In this document: positions 208 to 61,605 of the stretch, in pieces
Numbering within the stretch: position 1 is the stretch's first letter
Layout: each line of letters starts with the position of its first letter
Assembly: GCA_964016885.1 (NCBI GenBank)
Contig: OZ024741.1
Coordinates: 177,320,001 to 177,384,000 of the forward strand
Reading direction: 5' to 3'
Length of the DNA stretch: 64,000 nt
Source of the DNA: Eledone cirrhosa
Taxonomy: Eukaryota
The notes under the pieces: model-generated
The model's input: the letters and a program-made list of their open reading frames with translations, nothing else
The model's database searches: none
Told to the model about the DNA's origin: nothing
Position numbers and translations under genes: made by a program

Positions 208-578
208 ATTTGAATGGATACAGTTTAGTTGAAAGGAATTCATTGACACGTGTTTCTATAACAGTTACATAACCTGAAAACAGCTGCGATCTACAAAGTT
301 TTGAGTCTGTTATTGTGTGTTTTAGCCGTTCAGCTTGTGTTTTGTTCAATAATGAGTGTGTTCTGTTATTAATTCTGGCAATATTACGCAAATATGACCC
401 TCCCCAAATATAACAATATCTGTTTCGACACACGATTTCATATAAAAAACCTCGCAAAACTATATATATATATATATATAAAGATTTGAATGGATACAGT
501 TTAGTTGAAAGGAATTCATTGACACGTGTTTCTATAACAGTTACATAACCTGAAAACAGCTGCGATCTACAAAGTTTT
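23..578. repeat. Tandem duplication (units 23-302 and 307-578): 3' end of a (TA)n-abutting repeat + (TA)n + terminal ~97 bp of the Penelope-like element
   Basis: Two essentially identical units starting ctgttattgtgtg and ending ctacaaagtttt, differing in (TA)n length. The first part recurs at 5115-5224. Confidence 0.9.
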
Positions 579-1188
579 AGTTATGCAGACATTCAATATT
601 TCAATGTTATTATTTACTGTCATTTCATCAGAATAATATTACTGAGGACCTATTTAGTTTTTATAGAGAATATTAGGAGGGAGGGGTGAAGTTGTTAGAA
701 GAATAGTTGAAGGAGTAGTTTTTCGATAGCAGTGAGAATTCTTGGTGGCAGTGAGTAATTAGATTCCCATCTGTTGTTTTGACATTTTTTATAGAATATA
801 TTATTGGTTATTTTTCTAAATCTATAGAAGGATTAGAGATAGTAAAGATATGCGTGGTTGGTTTTGTGTTTGCACTTAATTAACATTCAGACTTAAATTT
901 TTCTTTCAAGTGTACGTATCCTTTCACCCACTCATTCACACACAAATATATTTGCACACCTCTACAAAATACATATACTCACAATTCACATATTCATACT
1001 TACATACATATACACATGCATACACATATATATACACACATGTATTCATGTACATACATACGCGCTCATGTGTATACATTTTCATACTCAACTTATCTTT
1101 ATATACACACGTATAGACACACACATATATACATACATACTCTAGTCCATGTGTACACACATACACATACATACACATCTATATACAC

Positions 1189-1254
<66 letters not shown>

Positions 1255-1257
<3 letters not shown>

Positions 1258-1470
1258 GATAAATCTACCAAGAGTTTACGGTAGTGTCCAATCCGTATGA
1301 AGAACTCAATGTAATCCGGATATCATGGAAAGAAGAGATGCAATGAAAAATCACTTTCGGTGAAAGATAAACGGAATAAAGAGTCAAGATAAAATATTAA
1401 AAAAATAATGAATAAAACAATGAAACAGTTCCTTATATTAAACAAAAAAAGTTCATTATTTCATTATTTC

Positions 1471-1480
<10 letters not shown>
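1255..1480 (-). mobile_element. Short 3'-terminal fragment of a related PLE inserted in a (TA)n tract of the PLE1 3' UTR
   Basis: Absent from the 54.4-55.6 kb copy. Shares GTAGAT..AGAGTTT..AATGTAATCCGGA..GAAAGA with the reverse complement of the PLE1 tail (55637-55715). Confidence 0.6.
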
Positions 1481-1530
<50 letters not shown>

Positions 1531-1764
1531 CACTTTAATACATGAATACACTTACATCTAACTATACACATCAAACATATATATATATTTACTTATTTAT
1601 ATACATTTTCACATATATATACATACTTATGGACGTTTTTAGACACATTCATTATCGTATATTTGCACCTATTCTCATCAGCATATCTTTCCATTATTAG
1701 TGTGGTAATTTAAGGTTATTAATATATGTTGAGAAGAGATTGTTTTTATATTTTTCTAACTAGA

Positions 1765-3900
1765 TTAAGGTTTATATAGTTGGTGGATGTCCCTCTTTAA
1801 TGTAATATTCGGCTTGTAGTGGGAAAAAAGGGTTTTAGTTCTGTGACGGCAGAATAATGTTCGTTCAATTCTGTTATTCAGTAGTTTCTTCTTGTGTGTG
1901 ATTATGTAATAAATCTCAAGATTACACAATTTGCAGAAATTTTGGCTCCTGGAAAAGCTTTGGGTTTTAGCTAATTTCTCCCATTTCAGGGTAAACTTTT
2001 GATCGCTATCCCTGAGCGTCCAAGCTTTTTCTGCTAAAGTTGTTACATTTCTTTGGCTCTGGTGTTTTATTGAGTAAGCATGCCTATACAATCGAGATTT
2101 AAACGATGTTGCCGTTGATCCCACGTAATACCACTCGCTGCCTCCGGATTTAATGGTACACTTATAAATAATATTTTTTTCCAGGCAGTTATTGCCGAGG
2201 GGGCAGTTGTCAGGATAGGTGCAGTTACAGTTGTGTACGTTGGGTTTTCTCTGGAGTAGTATTGCGGACGAACTTAGGTGTGGTTTATTTATGTTCTGTA
2301 GTGTATTGGCTACTGTTTTTTTTTTGTGTTCTTTGTACTTAAGTTCTTAGTGTTTTCGTTTAACCTTCTAGTATTGATCTTTTTATGTGTTGTTCAAGGT
2401 TTAACGCTGTAGAGTATGACAGTCTTATAGTGGTAGGGTTTAGGATTTTGTGGTATTTGTGTGATGTGGGAAAATGTCTTTTAATTATTTTAAAGAAGAG
2501 TACTGGTAAATTTGTACTAATGGAACTATTGTATTCGGGGTTATACCATAAGTACTCTTTGAATCGCTTTCTATTAGTTTTGTTTGTTGGTTTACTGGCG
2601 TGCATACTATGGTAGTATGTGTGGTTTGGTGTTGTGTTATTATATCTACCTATGTGGGATTTATTTTGGGTGTTTTGATTGTTCCCATCTATGTACTCTA
2701 TTTTGTTGAGGTAGCCTGCTTTACTAAGGGCGTCATCGTAGTACTCGGCGTGTTCCTTAAATACTTGTATGTTAGAAGATAGACCCGAGATTCTAAGGGA
2801 AATATTTTTAGGGATAGATTTAATTATAGAGATGGGGTGGTTAGACCCAACATTTACGTATTTGAGATTTTCATTCAATTTATGAAACGGTTTAATCAAA
2901 CCAGAGTTTAAATTGAGTGTGACATCCAGGAAGTTAACTACTTTAAGGTTGTATTCATATGTTATAGTTAGTCCTATTTCGAGTAGTAGTTTTCTTATAT
3001 CTTTGCGTAGTTTTTCTAGTTTTTGGTTATTAAGGTTTTTAGCTAGGAGGAGAATATCGTCGCGGTATATTCTGCCGTGGAGATTGCTGAATTTTTCCTG
3101 GAGTCTAAAGGCGATAAATAACCCCACAATATCAGTTATTTCCGCCGAATCGTTAGAGCCCATTGTTATGTCAAAGTTAGAGGGTCTATCTTTACGTACC
3201 CAATAACTGTTCTCAAATTTGACTATAGTTTTCCTAGCTTCTAATATAATCTTAATTTCATCGTTTGTAAGGTCAGAGTTATCCTTAGCAAACTTAATGG
3301 CTCTATTCAAAGTTTCAGGTGATATCGATGAGTAATATTCATCGATATCAAACTGGATAAACTTAGATTTATTCTTATTGCTAATGCTATTAAACCATCT
3401 TATTGCTTCTTGGGTCTTCCCCCAGAGTTTAATGTTAACCTTAGCCTTAATTTGGGGGATGATTCTATCTAAGATATATTTGCTTATTTTACCTATATCT
3501 GATTTAGAGGGGCAGATTAATCTAATTTTAGGGTCATTATCAAAGTTTACCTTGTGGTCCTTAAGATTGAAGGTGGGTACCGCCGGTAAGAATGGTCCTG
3601 TCCTATCTTCGATTCCGATATTTTTCACTATTTCGCATGCCTCATCATTGATGTGCTTAAGGGTTACTTCACTCGTTTTTCTATATTTTTTATGTAATTC
3701 TTTTCGAATGAAGTTGTTGTATGTAGTGCAATCCATAGTGTACAGGTTTGATGTTTTGTCCGCTTTTACTACAATTCCTTTGGTGTTTTTAAGGTCGTCC
3801 AGTAGTTTTTTTATATCTTTCTGTAATTTGCTGTTGGTGTTGCGTCCTTTGAATTTAATTTTAAGGATTAAGTTCATAAGGTCCTGCTCAAATGCATCTA
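1765..3900 (-). pseudogene. PLE reverse transcriptase + C-terminal GIY-YIG endonuclease (disrupted near 2330-2360)
   Basis: Motifs KADKTSNLY, KSDIGKISK, QFDIDEYYSSI, FDITMGSNDSAEI, IYRDD, VNFLDVTLNL, WYNPEY, RHFP; then CNC..CPLGNNCL, IIYKC, YVGST, LCNLE. The N-terminus of ORF 2360..4099 is spurious read-through of (TA)n. Confidence 0.92.
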
Positions 3901-3902
3901 TG

Positions 3903-3957
<55 letters not shown>

Positions 3958-3970
3958 AATATATATATAT

Positions 3971-4140
3971 AACAGAAAGGATTGTGGTAAAATACCAGGT
4001 GGACCATAACGCACCAGAGTACTCGATACTTAGGGTAGTAGAGTGGGTAATATGAAAAGAGTCAGGACACCGACGGCCAAGCTCTGGCGGCTTCGTCAAT
4101 CAGATAGATCCGAACTTTTGGGATCCGGACTCTTTTCATA
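3971..4140 (-). mobile_element. Miniature hairpin+tail element in (TA)n (probable non-autonomous PLE derivative)
   Basis: Hairpin 4051-4140 (TATGAAAAGAGTC...GACTCTTTTCATA) plus tail 3971-4050 homologous to 49875-49953 and 52618-52696. Confidence 0.75.
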
Positions 4141-4172
4141 TATATATATATATATATAAAATGAAAAAATCA

Positions 4173-4672: not shown

Positions 4673-5238
4673 TTATTTAGTCTGACCTAGTCTGACCATC
4701 TTTATTTAGTCTGACCTAAGAGAAGTATAAATAAATAAATAAATAATTAAATAAATACATACACAAGCACAATAACAACAAACACATATAAATACACACT
4801 AGTAAACCAAAACACGAACACACATCAAGCAAAACACTATACACACACGCAAACATATGCGCAAAGAAGACGAAAAAAAAAATAAACAGACTAAATAAAG
4901 ATGGCGTAAGCATACAATACAACGGGAGGAAACATAATAGCACCACTAACGATGTTGCAGATGTGCAACGAAAGATTTTGTTAGACTATATATATGTGTT
5001 TGTTTCTATATTGTACCTGTATTGTTGACCGTTGATCACACAATGGTAACATTGAGGACCGAATAAATTAAATTATCCGATATAAAAGACACAGAAGCGA
5101 AAACCAACCTCACAGTGAGTGTGTTCTGTTATTAATTCTGGCAATATTTTTACACAAATATGACCCTCTCCAAGTATAACAATATTTGTTTCGACACACG
5201 ATTTCATATCAAGAACCCCCAAACCTTATTCATCGCCG

Positions 5239-11895: not shown

Positions 11896-13044
11896 TCTTT
11901 ATATATATATAAAAGCGAGGATGTGTGTGTGACCAACTGAATTTGACAACACTTTCTGTGCACGTTGCACAGGTCGCTAAGATTGTCACATCACAAACAT
12001 CTTTCAAATCGACCCAGGTTGAGCAATAACAAATTGATATCAAAATTATCGGTAGGAAAATTGATGTAAGGGAGATAATAAACTTTATTGACAATCCTTA
12101 TAAAAAAGGGAGATAACCAACATTTCAGAAATCGGTTTACCTCCTAATACATTGGTTTTGAAAGAGGGAACACCAGTTATTTTGCTGAGAAATATCACTC
12201 CTCCAAAACTATGCAATGGTACACGCCTTGTGGTTAAAAAACTGTCTGCACTTAGTATTGACGCTACCATTCTATCCGGATGTGGAAAAGGCGAGGATGT
12301 GATAATAACAAAAATTAGCCTGACTACATCAGGCGTGGATACTCCCTTCTCCTTTCGCCGAACCCAATCTCCCCTTCGCGTTGCCTTTGCGATGTCCATA
12401 AACAAGTCGCAAGGTCAAACTCTTTCCGTCGATGGAATTCACTTGGATGAACCTTGCTGTTCGCACGGACAATTCTACGTTGCCTGCTCATGAATTGGCA
12501 GTCGAGATAATCTCTTTGCGTTTGTTCCGAAAAGAAAAACAAAGAATATCGTCTATCCTGAAGTGCTTTAGTGTTAACAAAAAACATTTATTACAGCTCT
12601 GCCTTGACTTCACCTTACTCATTACAAAACATACCAATGAATATGTCATGCAGGATATTTTGGATTATAAGTTAAAATACACAGCAAAGGATGCTCTCAA
12701 AGAATAGATTGTCTCTTATTCTACTCCCATTGTTTCTTTGTTTGTATACAACGCTGCTTTAATTACAACTTTTTGTACTTTAGCAAAACTGCCTGTTTTT
12801 TTATAGATTTGCAACGTGTATTGTCTTTAATCATATGTATAACTACATCCCTTTCAGTGTTTTCCTTCATTATCAGCATAGTGTTATGTGTACAAAGATT
12901 GCACTAAATAATCGTTTGCATTAAGTATTGAAGGCTTCTGCTTATTTTGACAGGTTGGGGATAAATAATGTTCTTCTTTTACTTCCTACCTGTATATTCT
13001 TAGTTTAATTTCAAACCCAGAGCAACGCCGGGTAAATCTGCTAG
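11896..13044 (+). mobile_element. Internally deleted Helitron
   Basis: A|TC 5' end (TCTTTATATATATATAAAAGCG..GTGTGTG), subterminal hairpin ACCCAGAGCAACGCCGGGT, 3' CTAG|T, internal helicase fragment. Confidence 0.9.
12130..12570 (+). pseudogene. Helitron PIF1-type helicase C-terminal fragment
   Basis: GLPPNTLVLKEGTPVILLRNI..LCNGTRL, AFAMSINKSQGQTL, SHGQFYVACS*, KNIVYPEVL. Confidence 0.92.
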
Positions 13045-49757: not shown

Positions 49758-49953
49758 TAGGAACGATGAGGACCCCAACGGCTGAGCTCAAGCCGTTTCG
49801 ACGGCTAATTCTGGCGTCCAGAATTAGCCGTCGAAACGGCTTGAGCTCAGGCGTCGGGATCCTAATCGTTCCCATTACCCACTCTACTACCCTAAGCATT
49901 GAGTACTTTGGTGCGTTATGGTCCACCTGGTTCCTTACCACATTTCCTTCGTT
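49758..49953 (+). mobile_element. Miniature hairpin+tail element in (TA)n
   Basis: Near-perfect palindrome 49758-49874 followed by tail 49875-49953. Confidence 0.85.
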
Positions 49954-49954
49954 A

Positions 49955-49989
<35 letters not shown>

Positions 49990-50010
49990 GTGTATTTATA
50001 TATATATATA

Positions 50011-52539
50011 GTGATAATAATAAATGTGAAGACTAAAATCCGGAGAGGTCTCGATAAAGATGACTATATATCAGATATATAAGAACCGTAGACCAAATAT
50101 TTATTAAAATAACAGATTAAGTTTAAGCAAATAATCTTGTACTGTGAAACAATTATTTCGCGGTGATTGATTGGTTCAACGGCATATGCAACAAGGAACA
50201 TTGCCGTTTTATTCTATTCGACATCAATAATTACTACTCCTCCATCACTTTACCACTTCTTCTTAGAGCTATCAATTTCGCTAAAACACTCACAGTGGTT
50301 AAGGATTTCGAAGTTGATATCATCCTCAATGCCCGTAAGCAGTGATTAATTTCGACGACTCTATTTGGATAAAACAATCTAATAATACCCCTTTCGACGT
50401 GAGTATGGGCGCCAGGTTACAGATATTATCGGCCTTTTCCTTCTTTTCCCTATCAAGGAAGAATTACCCAACGAAACGTGGGCGGTGGTTTGTACCGTGA
50501 CGACGGTCTTTTGACCATGACAAAGTGCGAACCACGATCTTGCGACAGGTTCAGAAAAGAACTCACAGCCTTCTTTAAAGGCTTCAACCTCTCCATACAG
50601 GTTGAGGCCAACCTCTTGGTCGTAAATTACCTCGACGTTTCCCTCGATTTGTCGAATGGCTTGCACTACCCGTATAGAAAGTCGAATGACACGCTTAATT
50701 ACATAAGTAAGCATTCTAACCTTCCTGCCAGCATAACCAAGAACTTGGTAAGAAACGTTTCTTTGAGGCTTTCCCGTCTATCTACAAACGAGCATATTTT
50801 CAACGACCATTCCACATATTACAATGAAGATCTTGCTCAGAGTCGATTTGTCGATGAGGTAGCTTATACAGAGTACGAGAATAGACCTAGGAAAAATAGA
50901 TCCCGACGCATTATATAGTATAACCCACCATATAATATGGAGCTGGCCACACCATTAGCTAAGATCTTTCTCTCCCTTATTATGAAGCATTTCCCTCCAG
51001 CACATAAACATAGTAACATTTTTAATAGAAATACCATTAAAATTTCTTACTCTACGACTCCTCAACTTGCCCATCACAGCTTCAAATTTAGCTAAATTAC
51101 CTAGCCGTAGGAACACGTGCAGCTCTGTAGATACTACTAATTGTAAATGTAGGAATCGGGTTGACTGCCCTCTATCCGGGAAATGCCTCTCTAGTAACAT
51201 TGTCTACACATGTAAGGTTGAAACACCCACGTCCCGTAGGGCCTACATAGGGTAACCGCAAATAGATTCAAGCAGCGTCTTTACATGCATACCCATTCTT
51301 TTTTTTAACCCTTTAAGAAGGAATATGACGTCACTTTCAGCTTATATCTGGAGTCTAAAAGACAACCACACCCAATATAAGTTACACTGGGAGATCCTAG
51401 CTAAGGCTAGATCGTATAACGGAAATAAAAGACCATGTGACCTCTGCGCTGCTGAGACCCTGGAAATACTCTACGCCAAAGACCACACCTTAAACAAACA
51501 ATTTGAAGCAATTTCGACTTGTAAACATAAATTGCACAAAACTTTCCTGTATTATAGCCCCACATTATACCCTAACTGATAGTACGAACTATACGCGGAT
51601 ATTTTACGTCTTGATGTGGTAACTAAGTATATGTTATGTTAATACCTTTACTTATTCGTATAGGTAAGTATATATTACATGTATGTTTTGTAAAGGTAGT
51701 ATACTTTCTCGTACGTATAATTGCTTGTATATGTTATTGCCCTATATAATATATATACTGTTACATGTTCATATGGTTATGTGTATACATGAGTTTTGCG
51801 TCTGTGTGAGTATGCGGGTTCGGACGTATGTCGGGTGTGTGTATATGTGTATTTGTCTTCTGGTTGACGTAACTTTAGGCGAACATGTGTATTTACATGT
51901 AGGTGTGTGTGTACACGCATTATATACGTATTTATGTGCGTATATTTATATACGTTTATTTAATTTATGTATACACGCACACACACATGTATATGTATAT
52001 ATGTTTTATATATATTTTTATGTGTATTTGGTGTATACGTTGGTATGTGTGCAGGTACAGGCGTTGGGTGGGACCTGTATGGGCGTGCGTATTTTTTTTT
52101 GTACGTGCTTGTATTTCCATACCCATGGCGAGTGTTCTCGCGTATGCGTGTGTATGTACGTATGTGTATGTATATATTTAATTTCAATTACCTGTGTAAT
52201 TTATTTACTTTATTCTTAACTCCGAAGCCTAGAATCATTCGGCTTGCTAAATAGAATTTTAGTCTACGACTTCAGTTATAACATGAGTGTGGTTTTGTCT
52301 TCGCGTGTAATTGATTTCACCGCACCAAATAATAATGTATTATCTTCGTTTTTTTTCGTTCTTTGGCAGGGAACGTTACCACGAACCAAAGTATCGTATT
52401 CCTGTCTTCTTTCGGTTGAAACGTTTTTTGAAATATTCACTTCTGGTTCACAGATTGAATTTTTTAGTTTCAGAAGATCCCGTTAAGGGTGAAAGCAGCG
52501 ATTCGTTGCTTAAACTTTAATCTGTAATTTTAATAAATA
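50011..52539 (+). mobile_element. Penelope-like retroelement PLE2: inverted tail + short arm, then 5'-truncated tail-less long arm, in (TA)n
   Basis: 50098-50130 is the reverse complement of 52506-52539; RT and GIY-YIG lie inside. Confidence 0.9.
50150..51579 (+). pseudogene. PLE RT + GIY-YIG endonuclease, disrupted
   Basis: IDWFN, FDINNYYSSI, FDVSMG, GLYRDDGL, VNYLDVSLDL, YNPPY, KHFP, CKCRNRVDCPLSGKCL, IVYTC, AYIG, CDLCAAE. Confidence 0.92.
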
Positions 52540-52560
52540 AATAATTTATATATTTATATA

Positions 52561-52617
<57 letters not shown>

Positions 52618-52619
<2 letters not shown>

Positions 52620-52810
52620 CGAAGGAAATGTGGTAAGGAACCAGATGGACTATAACGCACTAAAGTACTCAATACTTAGGGTAGTAGAGTGGGTAATAGG
52701 AACGAGTAGGACCCCGACGGCTGAGCTCAAGCCGTTTCGACGGCTAATTCTGGACTAGATTTCCCGTCGAAACAGCTTGAGCTCAGCCGTCGGGGTCCTA
52801 CTCGTTCCTA
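52618..52810 (-). mobile_element. Miniature hairpin+tail element, same family as 49758-49953, opposite orientation
   Basis: Tail 52618-52696, hairpin 52697-52810. Confidence 0.85.
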
Positions 52811-52848
52811 TATATATATATATATATATTTTTATATATATATATATA

Positions 52849-53161
52849 TTACCAAGAAAACAAAACATCAGTGATGCATCTGGACTTGGTTTATTTCGTG
52901 TTACAAATGTTTCGCCGACATGTAGCTCGAGTCATAGTCCTTGTATGGATCTAACTGATTCTACTTCTGCGGGTTCTTTCAGATACGTCTGCTATGTCCG
53001 GAACATTTGCTCCGGACATAACATTTGTAACACGAAATAAACCAAGTCCAGATGCATCACTGATTTTTAGTTTTCTTGATAATTTATACACCCTACTCTG
53101 ATGAATATCGAATGCTAATTTCGGCATAACGCCCACAGAAGCACCTTAGCTACCACTATAC

Positions 53162-53166
<5 letters not shown>
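52849..53166 (+). mobile_element. Hairpin+tail element with a different hairpin and a distantly related tail
   Basis: Inverted arms ~52849-52912 and ~53019-53082; tail 53083-53166. Confidence 0.75.
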
Positions 53167-53218
<52 letters not shown>

Positions 53219-53220
<2 letters not shown>

Positions 53221-54220
53221 TGCCAATGTGGTTTTATGGCGGGTTAATAGATCAACAAGCCAGAACATATAAAATCAAGGTCTAGCAAAGAGAGAAAAGG
53301 TTTTAAAATAAATTTTAAAAAGTTCGCTGTACTTACTATACGTGCCTTTACCGCCGTTTCATGCTCCAGAATAAACGGAAAATCCAAGTCGATTTTCATT
53401 GAGAAGGGAGCAATCTTCAGAAGGCTCTTCTCCCTCGGAGAATATAAAATTCCCGAATTCAAGTCACAAACTGACCCCATACAAAACCATTCCCAAATGA
53501 GAGCGGATGATGAAAGATATAATTCTGTCTGGTGCCGTGTGCAAAGACAAAAGGCAAGGTGGACAGGTCAATGTCCTGCCACTAGAAATAGCAGCAGTCC
53601 AAACGATTGCTCCCTTCTCAATGGAAATCCGCTTGGATTTTGCGTTTATTCTAGAGCATGAAATCGCGATAAAGTCACATATTGTAAATACAGTGAATGT
53701 ATTTTAAATTTATTTAAAAACTTTTTGTCTATTTGCTAGACCTTGATTTTATATGTTCTGGCTTGTAAATTTATTAACCCTTCATAGAACCACATTTGCA
53801 TACGGTTGGATAATACTTGTTTCCCTATATGTATTTTTTACACGTAGGAAATCATATTTTATTATTAATGATCTCCTCCTAAGGTAGAGATATAATGTTG
53901 GTCGTTTGGACTGCTGCTATTGCTAGTGGCAGGACATCGACCTGTCCACCCTGCCTTTTGTCTTTTCACACGACACCAGACAGGATTATTGCTTTCATCA
54001 TCCGCTCTCATTTGGGAATGGTTGTGTATGGCGTCAGTTCGTGATTTGAACTCGGGAGTTTTATATTCTCTGAGGGAAAAGAGCCTTCCGAAGATTGCTC
54101 CCTCCCGCTTGGATGTTCCGTTTATTATGGAGTATGTAACCGCGGTAAAGGTACATATAGTGAATACAGCGAATTTTTTAAAATTTATTTTAAATCTTTT
54201 TCTCTATTTGTTAGACCTTG

Positions 54221-54222
<2 letters not shown>
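53219..54222. repeat. Nested fold-back repeat (A-B-A'-X-B'-A'partial) bounded by (TA)n
   Basis: 53219-53415 is inverted at 53605-53802; 53275-53606 is inverted at 53901-54222. Confidence 0.85.
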
Positions 54223-54301
<79 letters not shown>

Positions 54302-54302
54302 T

Positions 54303-55886
<1,584 letters not shown>

Positions 55887-56424: not shown

Positions 56425-57415
56425 TCAATAGACACGTTTTTCCCCAGCTCGTCTCCTTGACGAACCTGCAGTTCTGATTCGAGCGAACAACAGGAGGTAG
56501 AGCTTGGAGATTGAAATGTTTTCAAGTACCCATAACCCTCAGCCAAGCGGCCAGTACGATAGATGGACAAACGACGACGTTCTTGGGAAGATTTTGGCAG
56601 CCGACGATAATCAACTAGCCAATTCTTTTCCGGAGAACTTTCGGTCCAGGTCTCATGGACAATTTCAAGAGATCCCTGGCCTGACATTTGTAGCCGGAAG
56701 CATTGTCAGTTCGAGATAAAATCTGGACGCATGGAAGTCAGTCAAAAGTGCCTCTCCGAGATGCACGAACTCGTCAATTGTCCGAACATTGTTGACTTGT
56801 AGATTTATGGCGAACACCTGCTCTCACATGTAGAACTGATAAGGCTATCAGACGAGCCCATCATGAAGATTTTATTGTCACCTTTCGTTAGCCAAGAAGG
56901 GTAGGCAATTTTTATCGCCTTGTGGATATGGTGAAAGAGGTCGTCTGTGGTACACGTCTGACAGAGTTGAAGACAAGCACATTCTTCTTCGGCCAATCTC
57001 TGAATAGCTTTTTCAGGTTTCGTTTGGAAAGGTTCATCATGTTGTAGAGAGAAGTATTTCCTTCGAAGCAGTTTGTTGAAAGGTCGATCAGAGAGGCGAG
57101 CATGGCCTAAGTGAATTGACCTGGTCAGAGTGTAGGTCTGTAGATTAGAGTGAGAGAACTGGGACAGGGCACTTGCTCTGGCAGTCAGTCTGACTGGCTT
57201 TTGTGGGCTTTTATTCACGTGTGAACCCTGATCCCCCCCCACACACACACTTAGGGGAGTTTATTTTGTTTCAATCTGTTTTGTATATTTTCCTTGTTTG
57301 TTGTTACGTCATATGACGTTTTCTACGCCAAATGTCACACTGTATCGCCCTGTACCGTCATATACCGTCATTAATGTGTTTCTTCATATGCGCCCTCCGT
57401 GGCAAATAAAGACAT
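56425..57415 (+). mobile_element. Degenerate Tx1 3' fragment
   Basis: Collinear with 44970-45999 (gacgacgttcttgg, aatcaactagccaat, tttgttgaaagg, AATAAA). Confidence 0.8.
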
Positions 57416-57435
57416 GTCTATTATTATAATTATTA

Positions 57436-57620
57436 GTGGATTGGCAGTATCTGTAGACAGTCGCATGCCATGCTTTGCAGCACTGTTACGTCCCGTTACG
57501 AACTGAGTTCAACTCCCGCCAAGGTTAAGTTTGCCTTTCATCCTTAGCGGGTCGATAAAATAAAGTACCAGTAATACACTGGGATAATTGCTGGCATTGT
57601 GCCAAAAGTAGAAACAATTA
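57436..57620 (+). mobile_element. tRNA-derived SINE
   Basis: GTGGATTGGCAGTATC..GAGTTCAACTCC..GTGCCAAAAGTAGAAACA(ATT)n. Confidence 0.88.
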
Positions 57621-57644
57621 TTAGTATTATTATCATTATTATTA

Positions 57645-60600
57645 CAGTTGCATTTATCTTGCTTTATGTTCATACGAGTTATCACCAAATCACAACCAGT
57701 GACCTCAAGAGACAACAAGGTCCGCCATGTTCAAGAAAGAACATACATACTCACACATGCATCTTTAGTGTTTAGACTTGTGATGTACTTATATTGACAG
57801 AATCTTCCTTAGTATATGGGCAGTTCCCATTAGTACTATCTTTTGTATTTCTCCTATACGCGGGTTTCCTGGGATTTGCGATAAGTTATCACTAGACCCC
57901 TTAGGTATCATTCCCAGAGCGCCTACAACCACTGGTATTGTTTTATTTCTCAATTTCCACATTTTTCCAATTTCTATCTCCAGGTCCTTATATTTGCTCA
58001 ATTTTTCAAATGTTTTTATAGATACATTCTTGTCTATTGGAACAGACATATCAATTAGCAGGCATACCCTCTTTTTAAAGTCCTTCAATATTATATCAGG
58101 TCTATTTGCATCTATTTTTCGGTCTGTTTGGATGCTAAAGTTCCACTAGATTGAGATGTGATCTTTTTCAAGTATGGGAGGTGGTTGATGCTCCCACCAA
58201 TTCTTTTGATGGGGCAGGTCAAAATGCTTACACATTATCCAATGTATGTATTGTGCAGCTCTGTCATGCCTGTTTAGGTATTCGGTTGGAGCTATAGGAC
58301 TACACATTGAAATTATATGGTCAATGGTCTCTGGTTGTTTTTTGCATACACGGCATAATGGGCTACATCCATTTTTTATTATGTTGGATTGGTAATTTTT
58401 TGTTGGCAGACACTGATCCTGTGCTGATATAATCAGTCCTTCAGTCTCCGATTTCAGTCCAGTGGATGCCAACCACTGATGGGTTAGAGTTTTGTCAACA
58501 TCAGGATTGTTAGCTCGCTCTGGGTATTTTCCATATAGAGGCTTTTCTTGCCATTTCTTAGCCAGTTTCTGTAGCAGTTCTTTCTTTGCAGTTACTTTTA
58601 CCTGCTTTGCTTTTTCTGTGTTTTCCATTTCAGCAGTAAATGGGACTTCTGAAATTTGTAGTCCATTACTGTATCTTTGTGCATCTTTTGTAATGGAATA
58701 TGATCTTTTGATGCTTTCGTGTTTCAAAACGAGTTTGATCATCCAATCATGTGATTCCCTTAGATATGTACATAATCCAATTTTTGCAGTTTTCAACGCA
58801 ATGTCTAACTGGATTAACCCACGTCCCCCTTCTTTCCTAGGGAGATATTTTCTATATAAATCTGCCTTAGGGTGATGCATTCTGTGCATGGTTAAGAATT
58901 TTCGAATTTTTGTATCGAGCCTACGGATCTCTGTGCTTGACCAGTTGATGACATTGTAACTGTAGGTTACTACTGGTATGGCAAGCGTGTCTATGGCATC
59001 GATCCTATTCCTTGGATTCAATTCCGTTCTTAAGATTGCTCTTACTCTGCGGTAACATTCCTTCCTTATCCTTTCCCTCATTGTCGAGTGCTTGATTCCG
59101 TCTCCTTCACAGACACTACTATATTTGTAAGTATTTTCTTGATCAAGTTCTCTTATCACGTTGCCCCGATCAAGATTAATGTCTGAACTCTTCAGCAGCT
59201 TTCCTCTGGTGAACGTTGCTTTGGCGCATTTATCTAGTCCAAACTCCATTTTAATGTCATCACTGAACTGCTCCACAGTGGATAATAGCCCTTGCAATTG
59301 TTCATCATTGTTTGCAAATAGTTTCAGGTCATCCATGTAGAACAAGTGATTAATGGTTTTGTCATAGACTTTATATCCATGTTTTGTTTCATTGAGCATT
59401 TTACTTAATGGTATAAGTGCGATGCAGAATAAAAACGGTGATAAAGAGTCACCCTGAAAAATTCCACAATTAATATTAACTTCTCCAGCTTCCAGTGATT
59501 TTGTTTCACTATTCAAAAGGAGTGTCGTTTTCCATGTCTTCATACTGAATGACAAAAACCTCCTGACAACGGGGGATATTTTGAAAATCTCTAAACATTT
59601 TTCAATCCAACTGTGTCGCAAATATCGAATGCTTTTTTATAATCCATCCAAGCAATCGATAGATTTTTGTGTCTATATTGACAATCTTCCAGTATCATTT
59701 TGTTAACCAAAAGCTGATCCTTACAGCCATATGAGCCTCGTTTACACCCTTTCTGCTCAATGGGAAATAGGTCATTTGTTATCAGGTGGTCATATGTGTA
59801 TTCAGTTAGGACTGATGTTAAAATTTTATACATTGTGGTCAAGCAAGTTATCGGTCTGTAATTTTGGGGATTGTTTGTCTCATCATTCGTCGGAAGCAGG
59901 AATGTAATGCCGTTAACTAGCCATGATGGTATCTTTTCTGGCTCCTTAACTATTTCATTGTAAAGTTGGGCTAACAGCTCATGAGACTCTGTGAAGGCAT
60001 TTATCCAAAAGTTTTATATTTTGTCTTTTCCTGGGGATTTCCATTTGCTGGTTTTTCTTAGAGCCAAGCGCAACTGTTCAACTGTTATATTTCCCATATT
60101 TGTTCATCAAGGTGAGCTGTATCTTTCATTTGTCTGTCTATTCATGGGGCATGTATGTTATGAACTTTTTCTTCGGCCCAGATCTTTTCCCAGAATTCTT
60201 GCACTTCCTCCTTGGGTGGTATTGATTTAGCAGTTATTGTTGACTTACCAATTTTTCTATAGAAGTTTCTTTGGTTGTTTTTGAACATATTATTGTCCTT
60301 ATAGAATCTAGATTAGTTTTTCAAAGCGCCTTATACGAGCAGCTTTGGCCGACACTTTTTGCTTGATTATTTATATCAGCATGTCTATGTCACTTGTTGA
60401 CTTTCTACTGTTCTTTTTGTTCAATTTTCTAAGTTTAGTTTGTTTAACATGTTCACCTACTTTATAGTTTGTTAAAATTTCTATGTCAGATCGAAGAAGG
60501 TTTATTTGGCGATTGATGTTCTCTTGCCAAGTAGATTTCTTGTGGGAATTCCTTTGTTTTTTCATCTTCACTCCACATAAGTGAGTGGTGACTTTAGCGG

Positions 60601-61605
60601 ATGCATAATAGAGATGATTTAAATCAGTAATGTTTAGTTTGTTTGTGATGATAATGTTTTTGATAATTATGTTAGTCTTGTGTATTATCTTTTGGTTCTG
60701 TTTGGAGTTCTGGATCTTAGGGAGGGTGTCTCGTTGCCCCATGTCAGATTCTTTCATTTTCATCCATTCGATCATAATTTCATCCTTCAAGTTGGCAAGT
60801 TCATTCTCATTCATTTCTTTATCATTTACAATCTCATTATTTTCATTTGGAGTTTCATCTTGAGCATGCACTCCCTCCACTTTTTCGATCCTTTCTTTAA
60901 TTTGTTCTGTTGCCAGTGATTCCTACCCATCCCTAGGATTCGAAGTGTTACAACTTACCTCGTTTTCACTGACACATGTTTCATTTTCCCTTCGCTGACT
61001 TTGTGCTAATAGCTTGATCTGATCAATTTCTATATCAGTTAGTAACATTTTTCTTACAATATTTCTTCGTATATTGGCTAGTTTGTTACTGTCAATATAG
61101 CCTATGTTTTCGGGATGCTTCTTTTTCGAGTTGATATATATGTCTGTTCTCTATTCGATGTATTTGATAGGTAGTACCTGGCAGTGTAGAAAGCCTCAAG
61201 GACTTCTTTATTATCTTCCATTGACCATTTTTCTCTCTTTTTCTTTGGATTTCTTGGTGGTGAGCATGGAGGGCCAACAGTAAGAGTATTCCGGTTATGG
61301 GAGGTCTCCAGCTCCGAAGTGATGGGAAGGTTTGAACCATTAGCTTATTTTTCGACCCCAGTCTGGTTCCTCTCTGAGGGACGCGGCCCATTCTTACCCG
61401 GGTGACGGCCGATTCGGTATGAGATTTTATCATTAGACATTTACTTTATTTTGTCGCGTTTTATCCTTATCCGCCAAGGGGTAATCATTTCGTGTTACCA
61501 CTTCTAGAACGAGTGTCAACCAAGACTAGAGGGGTCGTTCTCCCCTAGAGACACGGCTATTCCCCGCCGGCCGCCATCCCGGTATTTCTTGGTCACGGGG
61601 TTTTC
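57645..61605 (-). mobile_element. R4/Dong-like RLE non-LTR element D3 (distinct family), near full length
   Basis: ORF pieces from ~61440 to 57789: YRPITCL, GCKDQLL, GIFQGDSLSP, FYMDDLKLF, GGRGL, CRVC..ETIDHIISMC, RPDI..LIDMSVP..KLSKYKDL..PVVVGALG. Confidence 0.94.

What the first reader, a model, noticed from the sequence alone, without database searches (positions are those of the whole stretch)
49758..53166. Family of miniature hairpin+tail elements in (TA)n: candidate non-autonomous partners of Penelope-like elements
Seen: four 170-320 nt non-coding units sit in (TA)n (3971-4140, 49758-49953, 52618-52810, 52849-53166). Each is a long hairpin whose outer arm starts at the (TA)n and whose inner arm ends exactly where an ~80 nt tail begins. 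Three unrelated hairpin sequences carry homologous tails. The first three share TTACCCACTCTACTACCCTAAG(T/C)AT(C/T)GAGTACT..GTGCGTTAT.GTCCA..TGGT...TTACCAC; the fourth has the diverged ACACCCTACT..AATATCGAATGCT..GCATAACGCCCAC..TACCAC. Two units share the same ~115 nt hairpin and boundaries. Known: Penelope insertions often consist of inverted 5'-truncated copies, only one with a short 3' extension. Inference: the tail is the cis signal for a PLE RT/GIY-YIG enzyme, and these are either self-propagating mini-PLEs or stereotyped fold-back insertions. Their transcripts would form long dsRNA hairpins.
Basis: partly seen in the sequence, partly recalled or inferred. Interest (0 to 1): 0.8.

Follow-up and report, generated by a model that had tools for sequence, protein, structure and literature searches.

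The report
Twin RNA hairpins setting Penelope tails
The four small hairpin-plus-tail repeats are very short insertions of full-size Penelope-like jumping genes (Hydra group), not a separate mini-element family, and their tail holds one of two copies of a small bulged RNA hairpin, shared by many distant relatives, that likely tells the reverse transcriptase where to start copying.

Summary
The four units are real. Each is the shortest form of an insertion of an ORF-bearing Hydra-clade Penelope-like element (PLE) into (TA)n: an inverted tailless arm plus a forward arm with an 80-87 nt tail. An unbroken parent (721 codons, RT + GIY-YIG) carries the same tail in its 5' UTR and at its 3' end. Junctions differ in 26 of 27 units, so the minis are made anew, not copied as units. 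This architecture is published.

What I did not find in print: the tail is bounded by a twin RNA motif, GCTC-stem-2 nt bulge-GAGCACT. It occurs twice before the start codon in 24 of 32 5' UTR windows of distant Hydra elements, and its inner stem covaries (49/50 Watson-Crick at the first pair). Copy ends fall 2-5 nt upstream of either hairpin, so hairpin spacing equals tail length. Short arms also stop at one site (YYAGT, initiator-like), likely the mRNA 5' end, which would explain the excess of minis. The mechanism is inferred; no RNA data were available.

The parts
49760..49813 (-). Unit U2 (family A1): inverted, tailless arm, about 56 nt, starting at the (TA)n
49816..49872 (+). U2 forward arm, from +2 of the shared 5' stop; holds only the 3' half of a hammerhead motif (GAAAC, stem III, GUC)
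49873..49955 (+). U2 tail: sequence between cDNA start sites 1 and 2; the last TAT is shared with the (TA)n
49881..49907 (+). Bulged hairpin H1 in the U2 tail (ACTC-stem-TT-GAGT-ACT)
52616..52698 (-). Unit U3 (family A1) tail, with H1 at 52664-52690
52699..52756 (-). U3 forward arm, complete from the +1 AGT site
52760..52808 (+). U3 inverted tailless arm (inner boundary approximate); junction differs from that of U2
52849..53004 (-). Unit U4 (family B): inverted tailless arm, about 156 nt
53003..53082 (+). U4 forward arm, with an internal deletion of about 90 nt (read by eye against long copies)
53083..53168 (+). U4 tail (87 nt in family B) with a decayed H1 at about 53090-53116
3969..4052 (-). 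Unit U1 (family A2, sister of A1) tail, H1 at 4018-4044
4053..4116 (-). U1 forward arm from the +1 AGT site
4123..4141 (+). U1 short inverted arm (13-16 nt stem)
50011..52546 (+). Neighbouring insertion of another Hydra family (C) with the same build: short tailed arm on the minus strand (50011-50136) plus a long, 5'-truncated, broken, tailless arm; +1-like AGT site at 52466
480..3905 (-). Neighbouring 5'-truncated Hydra element of family D (RT 42% identical to family A; DKT, CxCx5C), tailless end; not the parent of U1

Best explanation
The units are minimal insertions of ORF-bearing Hydra-clade Penelope-like retrotransposons, likely made when the element's enzyme primes two cDNAs from the two ends of a cut in (TA)n at two start sites near the 5' end of its own mRNA. 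Shown: each start site lies 2-5 nt upstream of one copy of a conserved bulged hairpin (H1 inside the tail, H2 just past it); the tail is the sequence between the sites; short arms stop at a shared YYAGT site; arms join head to head through 0-6 nt microhomology or untemplated bases. Inferred: the hairpins are the protein-binding signals that place the primer; 2-6 nt of TAT pairing with the target helps priming; YYAGT is the transcription start, so both cDNAs run off after 59 nt (family A) or 169 nt (family B) and are joined by their 3' ends. Long copies would need read-through RNA that begins upstream of a pseudo-LTR.
For: Parent elements. Unbroken family A copy in L220: pLTR, tail, 5' UTR, ATG 1789, 721 codons with DKT, YRDD and CxCx5C, 3' UTR, hammerhead, tail. 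Tail upstream of RT in 16 of 29 family A loci and 13 of 24 family B loci. Long copies end with the tail in 15 of 30 loci and without it in 15 of 30, some as inverted pairs. Twin motif. Two copies in 24 of 32 5' UTR windows, against at least one hit in 16 of 601 coding windows. These elements are about 48% identical at protein level (median best HSP). In 50 non-redundant hairpins picked by outer anchors only, the inner pairs are Watson-Crick in 49/50, 36/50 and 28/44 at a 2-nt bulge; shuffles give 25, 14 and 11 (0 of 5000 reach the observed value), and other registers fail. The pair-count tool gives 95.8% paired and 23 compensatory cells, 0/500 shuffles. Ends. Family A sites are 5 and 3 nt before H1 and H2, family B 4 and 4 nt. 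All 10 informative metagenome 3' ends lie 2-4 nt before a hairpin (7 clear, 1 variant hairpin, 2 adjusted by eye). Hairpin spacing 78 and 87 nt against tails of 80 and 87 nt. 5' stop. None of 56 short family A arms passes -3 of the AGT site and 40 start within -3..+7. Family B: 6 of 20 forward and 8 of 15 inverted arms stop at 167-172. Families A2 and C stop at AGT in a TTAGT or TCAGT context. Runs of untemplated A/T follow +1 in several units. The two arms carry the same subfamily letters in 25 of 26 units; random pairing would give about half. Two internal RT start sites that delimit the tail were shown in vitro for an Anolis PLE (PMC11167929).
Against: No RNA or biochemical data. The 5' stop could be an RT pause: a hairpin lies just upstream of AGT in families A, A2 and B (by eye). 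An extra 5' G from a cap is not clearly enriched (4 of 27 listed family A rows, 2 of them explained by the partner arm). Read depth shows the 5' stop for family A but not clearly for B. Depth is RAD-biased or summed contig depth, so it gives no copy number. 4 of 32 5' UTR windows have no motif and 4 have one. I did not see the motif at the ends of 2 of 6 published Hydra consensi (Hydra-1_Amil, Hydra-1_Obim, by eye). The outer GCTC/GAGC helix barely varies, so its pairing is not shown by covariation, and the shuffles ignore relatedness. One junction recurs (2 of 27), so occasional copying of whole units is not excluded.
Confidence: 0.7

Rival explanations
1. The minis are a self-propagating non-autonomous family (SINE- or retrozyme-like) that is copied as a whole hairpin-plus-tail unit by the PLE enzyme.
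For: Minis greatly outnumber long copies: depth rises roughly 13-25-fold at the +1 site. A mini that reaches +1 keeps H1 and ends in (TA)n, so it could be a template. One junction was seen twice.
Against: 26 different junctions in 27 units. Either arm can be the longer one (14 against 9). Each subfamily variant also occurs in long RT/EN-linked copies. Minis lack H2 and, in family A, the 5' half of the hammerhead.
Confidence: 0.1
2. Same insertions, but the motif acts as DNA: the GIY-YIG endonuclease recognises it and cuts or resolves the intermediate next to it, which fixes the two ends.
For: PMC8557442 suggests that the tail comes from endonuclease-mediated resolution. PMC11167929 recalls that the tail was needed for Penelope EN recognition of plasmid DNA. 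The motif's outer letters are conserved in sequence.
Against: The inner stem covaries with a strict 2-nt bulge and a free loop, which fits a folded single strand. The motif is on the sense strand (42 sense against 2 antisense hits in flanks). The end next to a hairpin lacks that hairpin in the new copy, as expected if it lies 3' of the priming site on the RNA. RT start sites match tail ends in vitro in the Anolis element.
Confidence: 0.1
3. Twin hairpins set the start sites as proposed, but the 5' cap on arm length is an RT pause or an RNA processing site, not the transcription start.
For: Hairpins abut the AGT site in three families. The site also reads like a 3' splice site (pyrimidines + AG). 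The cap-G signal is weak.
Against: Arms keep the AG and show no common upstream exon. Untemplated runs suggest run-off. YYAGT recurs in four families. Penelope's start site lies in the pLTR with Inr and DPE (PMC2377424; PMC8557442), and one family B lineage has the same RGACGTGY motif at +28.
Confidence: 0.25
4. Ordinary TA-duplicating MITEs or DNA-transposon ends.
For: Inverted repeats in TA-rich sites.
Against: Asymmetric ends, variable arms, and direct continuity with RT/GIY-YIG ORFs.
Confidence: 0.01

Closest known systems
Hydra clade of C-terminal EN+ Penelope-like elements (Craig et al. 2021, PMC8557442; passages, section 11, supplement rows and File S7 read)
   Same: RT + C-terminal GIY-YIG, DKT, CxCx5C, CxxC/CxH, (TA)n target, pLTR partial tandems, adjacent inverted 5'-truncated copy, one-sided tail.
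   Different: Tails here are 80-87 nt, against the 30-40 bp described. The unit is about 3.55 kb (described as generally under 3 kb). The hammerhead cores are variants. The paper does not mention the twin bulged hairpin (the word 'hairpin' occurs 0 times in the main text), though its consensus file contains it.
Poseidon from Anolis carolinensis, PAc (Frangieh et al. 2024, PMC11167929; parts 1-2 of 4 read, figures not seen)
   Same: Two internal RT start sites bound the tail; the hammerhead cut is not needed; AT-rich targets.
   Different: PAc starts in an AC-rich stem loop inside the ORF with no homology to the target. Here the sites are in the 5' UTR, each just 5' of a duplicated conserved hairpin, with TAT microhomology to (TA)n.
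Minimal hammerheads of PLEs, including the U3-A8 variant and close opposite-strand pairs (Cervera and De la Pena 2014, PMC4209133; part 1 of 4 read)
   Same: Family A has a type I motif with a U3-A8 core (TTGAGAA in 48 of 80 counted copies). Short inverted pairs were noted there too.
   Different: Stem II is long here. The family B core has one extra base (CTGAAAGA in 46 of 51). Family A minis carry only the 3' half. Cleavage is untested.
Non-LTR retrozymes (bioRxiv 10.64898/2026.07.22.740005; part 1 of 5 read)
   Same: Short PLE-derived non-coding repeats.
   Different: Retrozymes are head-to-tail tandems with a whole hammerhead in each unit. These are head-to-head, mostly without a whole ribozyme, and made anew at each insertion.
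3' stem-loops of stringent LINEs and SINEs (recalled; PMC5135761 seen only as a search listing)
   Same: A small bulged RNA stem-loop as a proposed RT recognition signal.
   Different: There the stem-loop is 5' of the priming site and is copied. Here it is 3' of its own start site, is not copied by that cDNA, and comes in two copies.

Membership tests
Hydra-clade PLE | Single ORF with RT and C-terminal GIY-YIG-type EN | tested here: met
   L220 ORF, YRDD at 347 and YIG at 605; Pfam scan of it gave no family
Hydra-clade PLE | DKT, CxCx5C, CxxC/CxH, RWK-type motif | tested here: met
   DKT, CNCPDRSIC, CNLC, CKH; RWR instead of RWK; motifs in 114-119 of 120 homologues
Hydra-clade PLE | Insertion into (TA)n | tested here: met
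Hydra-clade PLE | Canonical hammerhead in the pLTR | tested here: inconclusive
   Type I-like motifs with variant cores; Rfam found none
Hydra-clade PLE | Placement in the Hydra clade on an RT tree with named references | not tested
Canonical EN+ PLE insertion unit | Partial tandem forming a pLTR; adjacent inverted copy; one-sided tail | tested here: met
Non-autonomous PLE or retrozyme | Fixed unit copied as a whole; tandem units with complete hammerheads | tested here: not met
   26 junctions in 27 units; arms variable; continuity with ORFs
MITE | Symmetric terminal inverted repeats and fixed length | tested here: not met
Known Rfam family | Match at gathering score | tested here: not met
   window and 6 loci with both hairpins: no match reached a gathering score

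The most novel reading that the evidence does not exclude
Hydra-clade PLEs use a duplicated, roughly 20-30 nt bulged RNA hairpin as a portable RT-positioning signal. One hairpin per protomer of an RT-EN dimer would launch two cDNAs from one RNA at the two ends of a double-strand cut. This would explain the PLE tail, the head-to-head arms and, with an mRNA start just upstream, a mass of strong-stop insertions that could seed dsRNA hairpins.
Probability: 0.5. Interest if true: 0.8.

Novelty: new variant of a known kind. Interest (0 to 1): 0.62.

Why it matters
How PLE reverse transcriptases, the closest retroelement relatives of telomerase, pick their template and start inside an RNA is open; the one in vitro study located two start sites but no conserved signal. 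A short motif that is conserved across distant Hydra elements, sits at a fixed distance from both ends and predicts tail length makes that question testable with a few mutant RNAs. It also gives annotators an exact rule for Hydra element ends. It suggests why tiny fold-back copies dominate such genomes, and it could serve as a handle for internal priming in RT-based insertion tools. The hairpin units themselves are ordinary PLE products.

Tried and rejected
Rfam: nothing relevant. Pfam scan: no family for the window ORFs or the family A protein. Viral contigs: no relative. Expression: no RNA holder listed, which is no evidence either way. Free folding of the 291 nt 5' region is not unusual (z -0.5) and does not give H1 and H2, because H1's 5' side can also pair with H2's 3' side; the structure rests on covariation. 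Cap-derived 5' G: inconclusive. Hammerhead cut as the 5' limit of arms: rejected, since arms pass the predicted site in families A and B. Read depth for the family B 5' stop: unclear. The idea that each unit is the 5' end of its neighbouring ORF: rejected, the neighbours are other families with their own tails. A genome-wide count of junction polarity was not obtained. Literature: 10 searches of an open-access library found no description of the twin hairpin; subscription papers, Repbase reports and figures are not covered, and the Frangieh supplementary figures (S1B, S2C) could bear on it (one search found no text).

Full report
Observation. The four units lie where stated, each between (TA)n tracts. 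Folding confirms long stems for U2 (49760-49955), U3 (52616-52808) and U4 (52849-53168) and a 13-16 bp stem for U1 (3969-4141). U1 is 81-83% identical to U2 and U3 over 135 nt including the arm, so U1, U2 and U3 are two sister subfamilies (A2, A1) and only U4 (family B) has an unrelated body. The window lies in a 3.0 Gb genome; the tail searches returned 1024 (capped) and 690 candidates, of which 40 were scored and 30 fetched each. That the host is an octopus is my recall from its repeats, not a test.

The units are not a fixed mini-element. Among 34 tailed family A1 copies with a recognisable forward arm, 25 had an inverted arm detected within 330 nt (the detector missed some). Total lengths ran 62-135 nt; the inverted arm was longer in 14 and the forward arm in 9; most junctions had 0-4 nt overlap or a few extra bases. 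Family B behaved alike: 20 copies, 15 with an inverted arm. 27 complete A1 units showed 26 different junctions, and the two arms carried the same subfamily letters in 25 of 26 scorable units. Each unit was therefore most likely formed at insertion from one RNA or one source locus.

They belong to ORF-bearing Hydra-clade PLEs. The sequence upstream of one tail retrieved 30 long copies; 11 have RT or EN on the same strand within 1.5 kb, 15 end with the tail and 15 end exactly at the tail boundary, some as the two halves of one inverted insertion (a few loci overlap or are duplicates). Of 29 loci fetched with the RT, 16 carry the whole tail upstream of the ORF. L220 is unbroken: pLTR, hammerhead, tail, 5' UTR, ATG 1789, 721 codons, 3' UTR, hammerhead, tail. 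It has the features listed for Hydra in PMC8557442 section 11: DKT, CxCx5C, CxxC, CxH. Family B is the same: tail upstream of RT in 13 of 24 loci, and EN continuous with its 3' UTR in three long loci. The subfamily variant common in minis also occurs in RT/EN-linked long copies (3 of 20 loci on the same strand), and so does A2 (3 of 20). The tail is thus the first 80-87 nt past the pLTR, as in the Anolis element, where it is the stretch between two RT start sites (PMC11167929). The neighbouring ORFs in the window belong to other Hydra families with their own tails.

The twin hairpin. In family A both ends finish in TAT shared with the target and are followed, 5 and 3 nt later, by a hairpin of one design: RCTC, a short stem, a 2-nt 3' bulge, GAGY, then NCT. 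Family B has the same at 4 and 4 nt. Raw DNA reads and contigs of public runs show (TA)n loose ends mainly at these two places. A descriptor found 326 hits in 1.96 Mb of held sequence against 3-6 in three shuffles; most are A and B, which I had searched for, but six other multi-copy families and several singletons also match.

For an outside test I fetched 77 metagenome loci with Hydra-type ORFs. In 32 windows of 200 nt before the start codon (31 loci), 24 held two motifs, 4 one and 4 none; 16 of 601 coding windows and 6 of 32 antisense windows had any hit. The loci are distant (median best-HSP identity 48%, two pairs above 80%) and the spacing is 55-83 nt. In 50 non-redundant hairpins chosen by outer anchors alone, the bulge was TT, TC or TA. 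The next three pairs were Watson-Crick in 49/50, 36/50 and 28/44, with C-G, T-A, A-T and G-C types; no other register worked and no shuffle reached these values (one search agrees on 22 rows). These controls ignore relatedness, and the outer helix is too constant to show covariation.

In 17 loci where the 3' end could be compared with the 5' copy, 6 ran to a contig end and 1 read through. The other 10 ended 2-4 nt before a hairpin, five before H1 and five before H2 (two read by eye past alignment overshoot, one with a variant hairpin). By eye, the published consensus file shows the motif twice before the ATG of a sea cucumber element, once in a sea cucumber tail and a coral tail, and as variants in a copepod element; I did not see it in two others.

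The 5' stop. None of 56 short family A arms passed -3 of an AGT site 59 nt upstream of the boundary, and 40 began within -3..+7. Family B arms pile up at 167-172 nt, again at AGT; A2 and C do the same in TTAGT or TCAGT contexts. Depth on family A rises about 13-25-fold at this site and falls some hundredfold after the tail (rough, RAD-biased or summed contig depth); for B only the fall after the tail is clear. Several arms end in untemplated A runs. Penelope's start site lies in the pLTR with Inr and DPE motifs (PMC2377424, passages). I read the site as the mRNA start (about 0.7), with an RT pause as the rival. Arms pass the predicted hammerhead cut, in line with unprocessed RNA being the template.

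Mechanism. Shown: anatomy, parentage, the two ends, their distance to the hairpins, covariation, the 5' stop, de novo junctions. From the literature: cleavage of both strands and two internal starts in a related element, with a predicted dimer. Inferred: the protein binds H1 and H2, primes one cDNA from each target end, both run off the capped 5' end, and their 3' ends are joined, giving (TA)n - inverted arm - forward arm - tail - (TA)n. Long copies need RNA that starts further upstream.

Comparison and novelty. The insertion unit is the known PLE build (PMC8557442 passages; PMC3846280 passages), and earlier notes of this scan reached the same view in other genomes. The duplicated bulged hairpin, the rule that ends lie 2-5 nt before it, and the link between hairpin spacing and tail length were not found in 10 searches of the held library or in Rfam. 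Coverage is incomplete. Verdict: observation partly confirmed, first reading partly supported, new variant of a known kind, interest 0.62.

Noticed in passing
window 50011-52546: A family C Hydra insertion in which the tail is on the short inverted arm and the long, broken ORF arm is tailless; its short arms elsewhere start at TTAGTT (52466).
   Followed up: partly
window 480-3905 (-) and 54424-55750 (+): Two family D Hydra copies: one tailless, one with a tail of about 110 nt holding a decayed bulged hairpin at 55644-55689. The first also has a short tandem repeat of its 3' end near 180-300.
   Followed up: partly
window 53222-54225: A nested fold-back of about 1 kb of another repeated sequence (75-86% identical to pieces in four other loci), with a hairpin-like motif near 53873; family not identified.
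   Followed up: partly
L134 minus strand about 4870-4990; L319:865-950: Family B hammerhead-like motif with an eight-base core (CTGAAAGA in 46 of 51 copies) and a long stem II; activity unknown.
   Followed up: partly
L220:1588-1789: The tail and 5' UTR are open in frame with the ORF for 67 codons upstream of the ATG; may be chance.
   Followed up: no
L220:1624-1725: The 5' side of H1 is complementary over 9 nt to the 3' side of H2, so an alternative long-range fold could switch the two hairpins.
   Followed up: no
window 17300-46050 and 56700-61000: A dense nest of broken non-LTR retrotransposon copies of at least two kinds, in both orientations.
   Followed up: no
window 12104-12493: ORF fragment that looks like a PIF1-type helicase of a Helitron (label recalled, not tested).
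   Followed up: no
L123:2258-4261 (-); L130:3731-5233 (+): Long RT ORFs of other PLE-like lineages (DKG motif) lying next to or inside Hydra copies.
   Followed up: no
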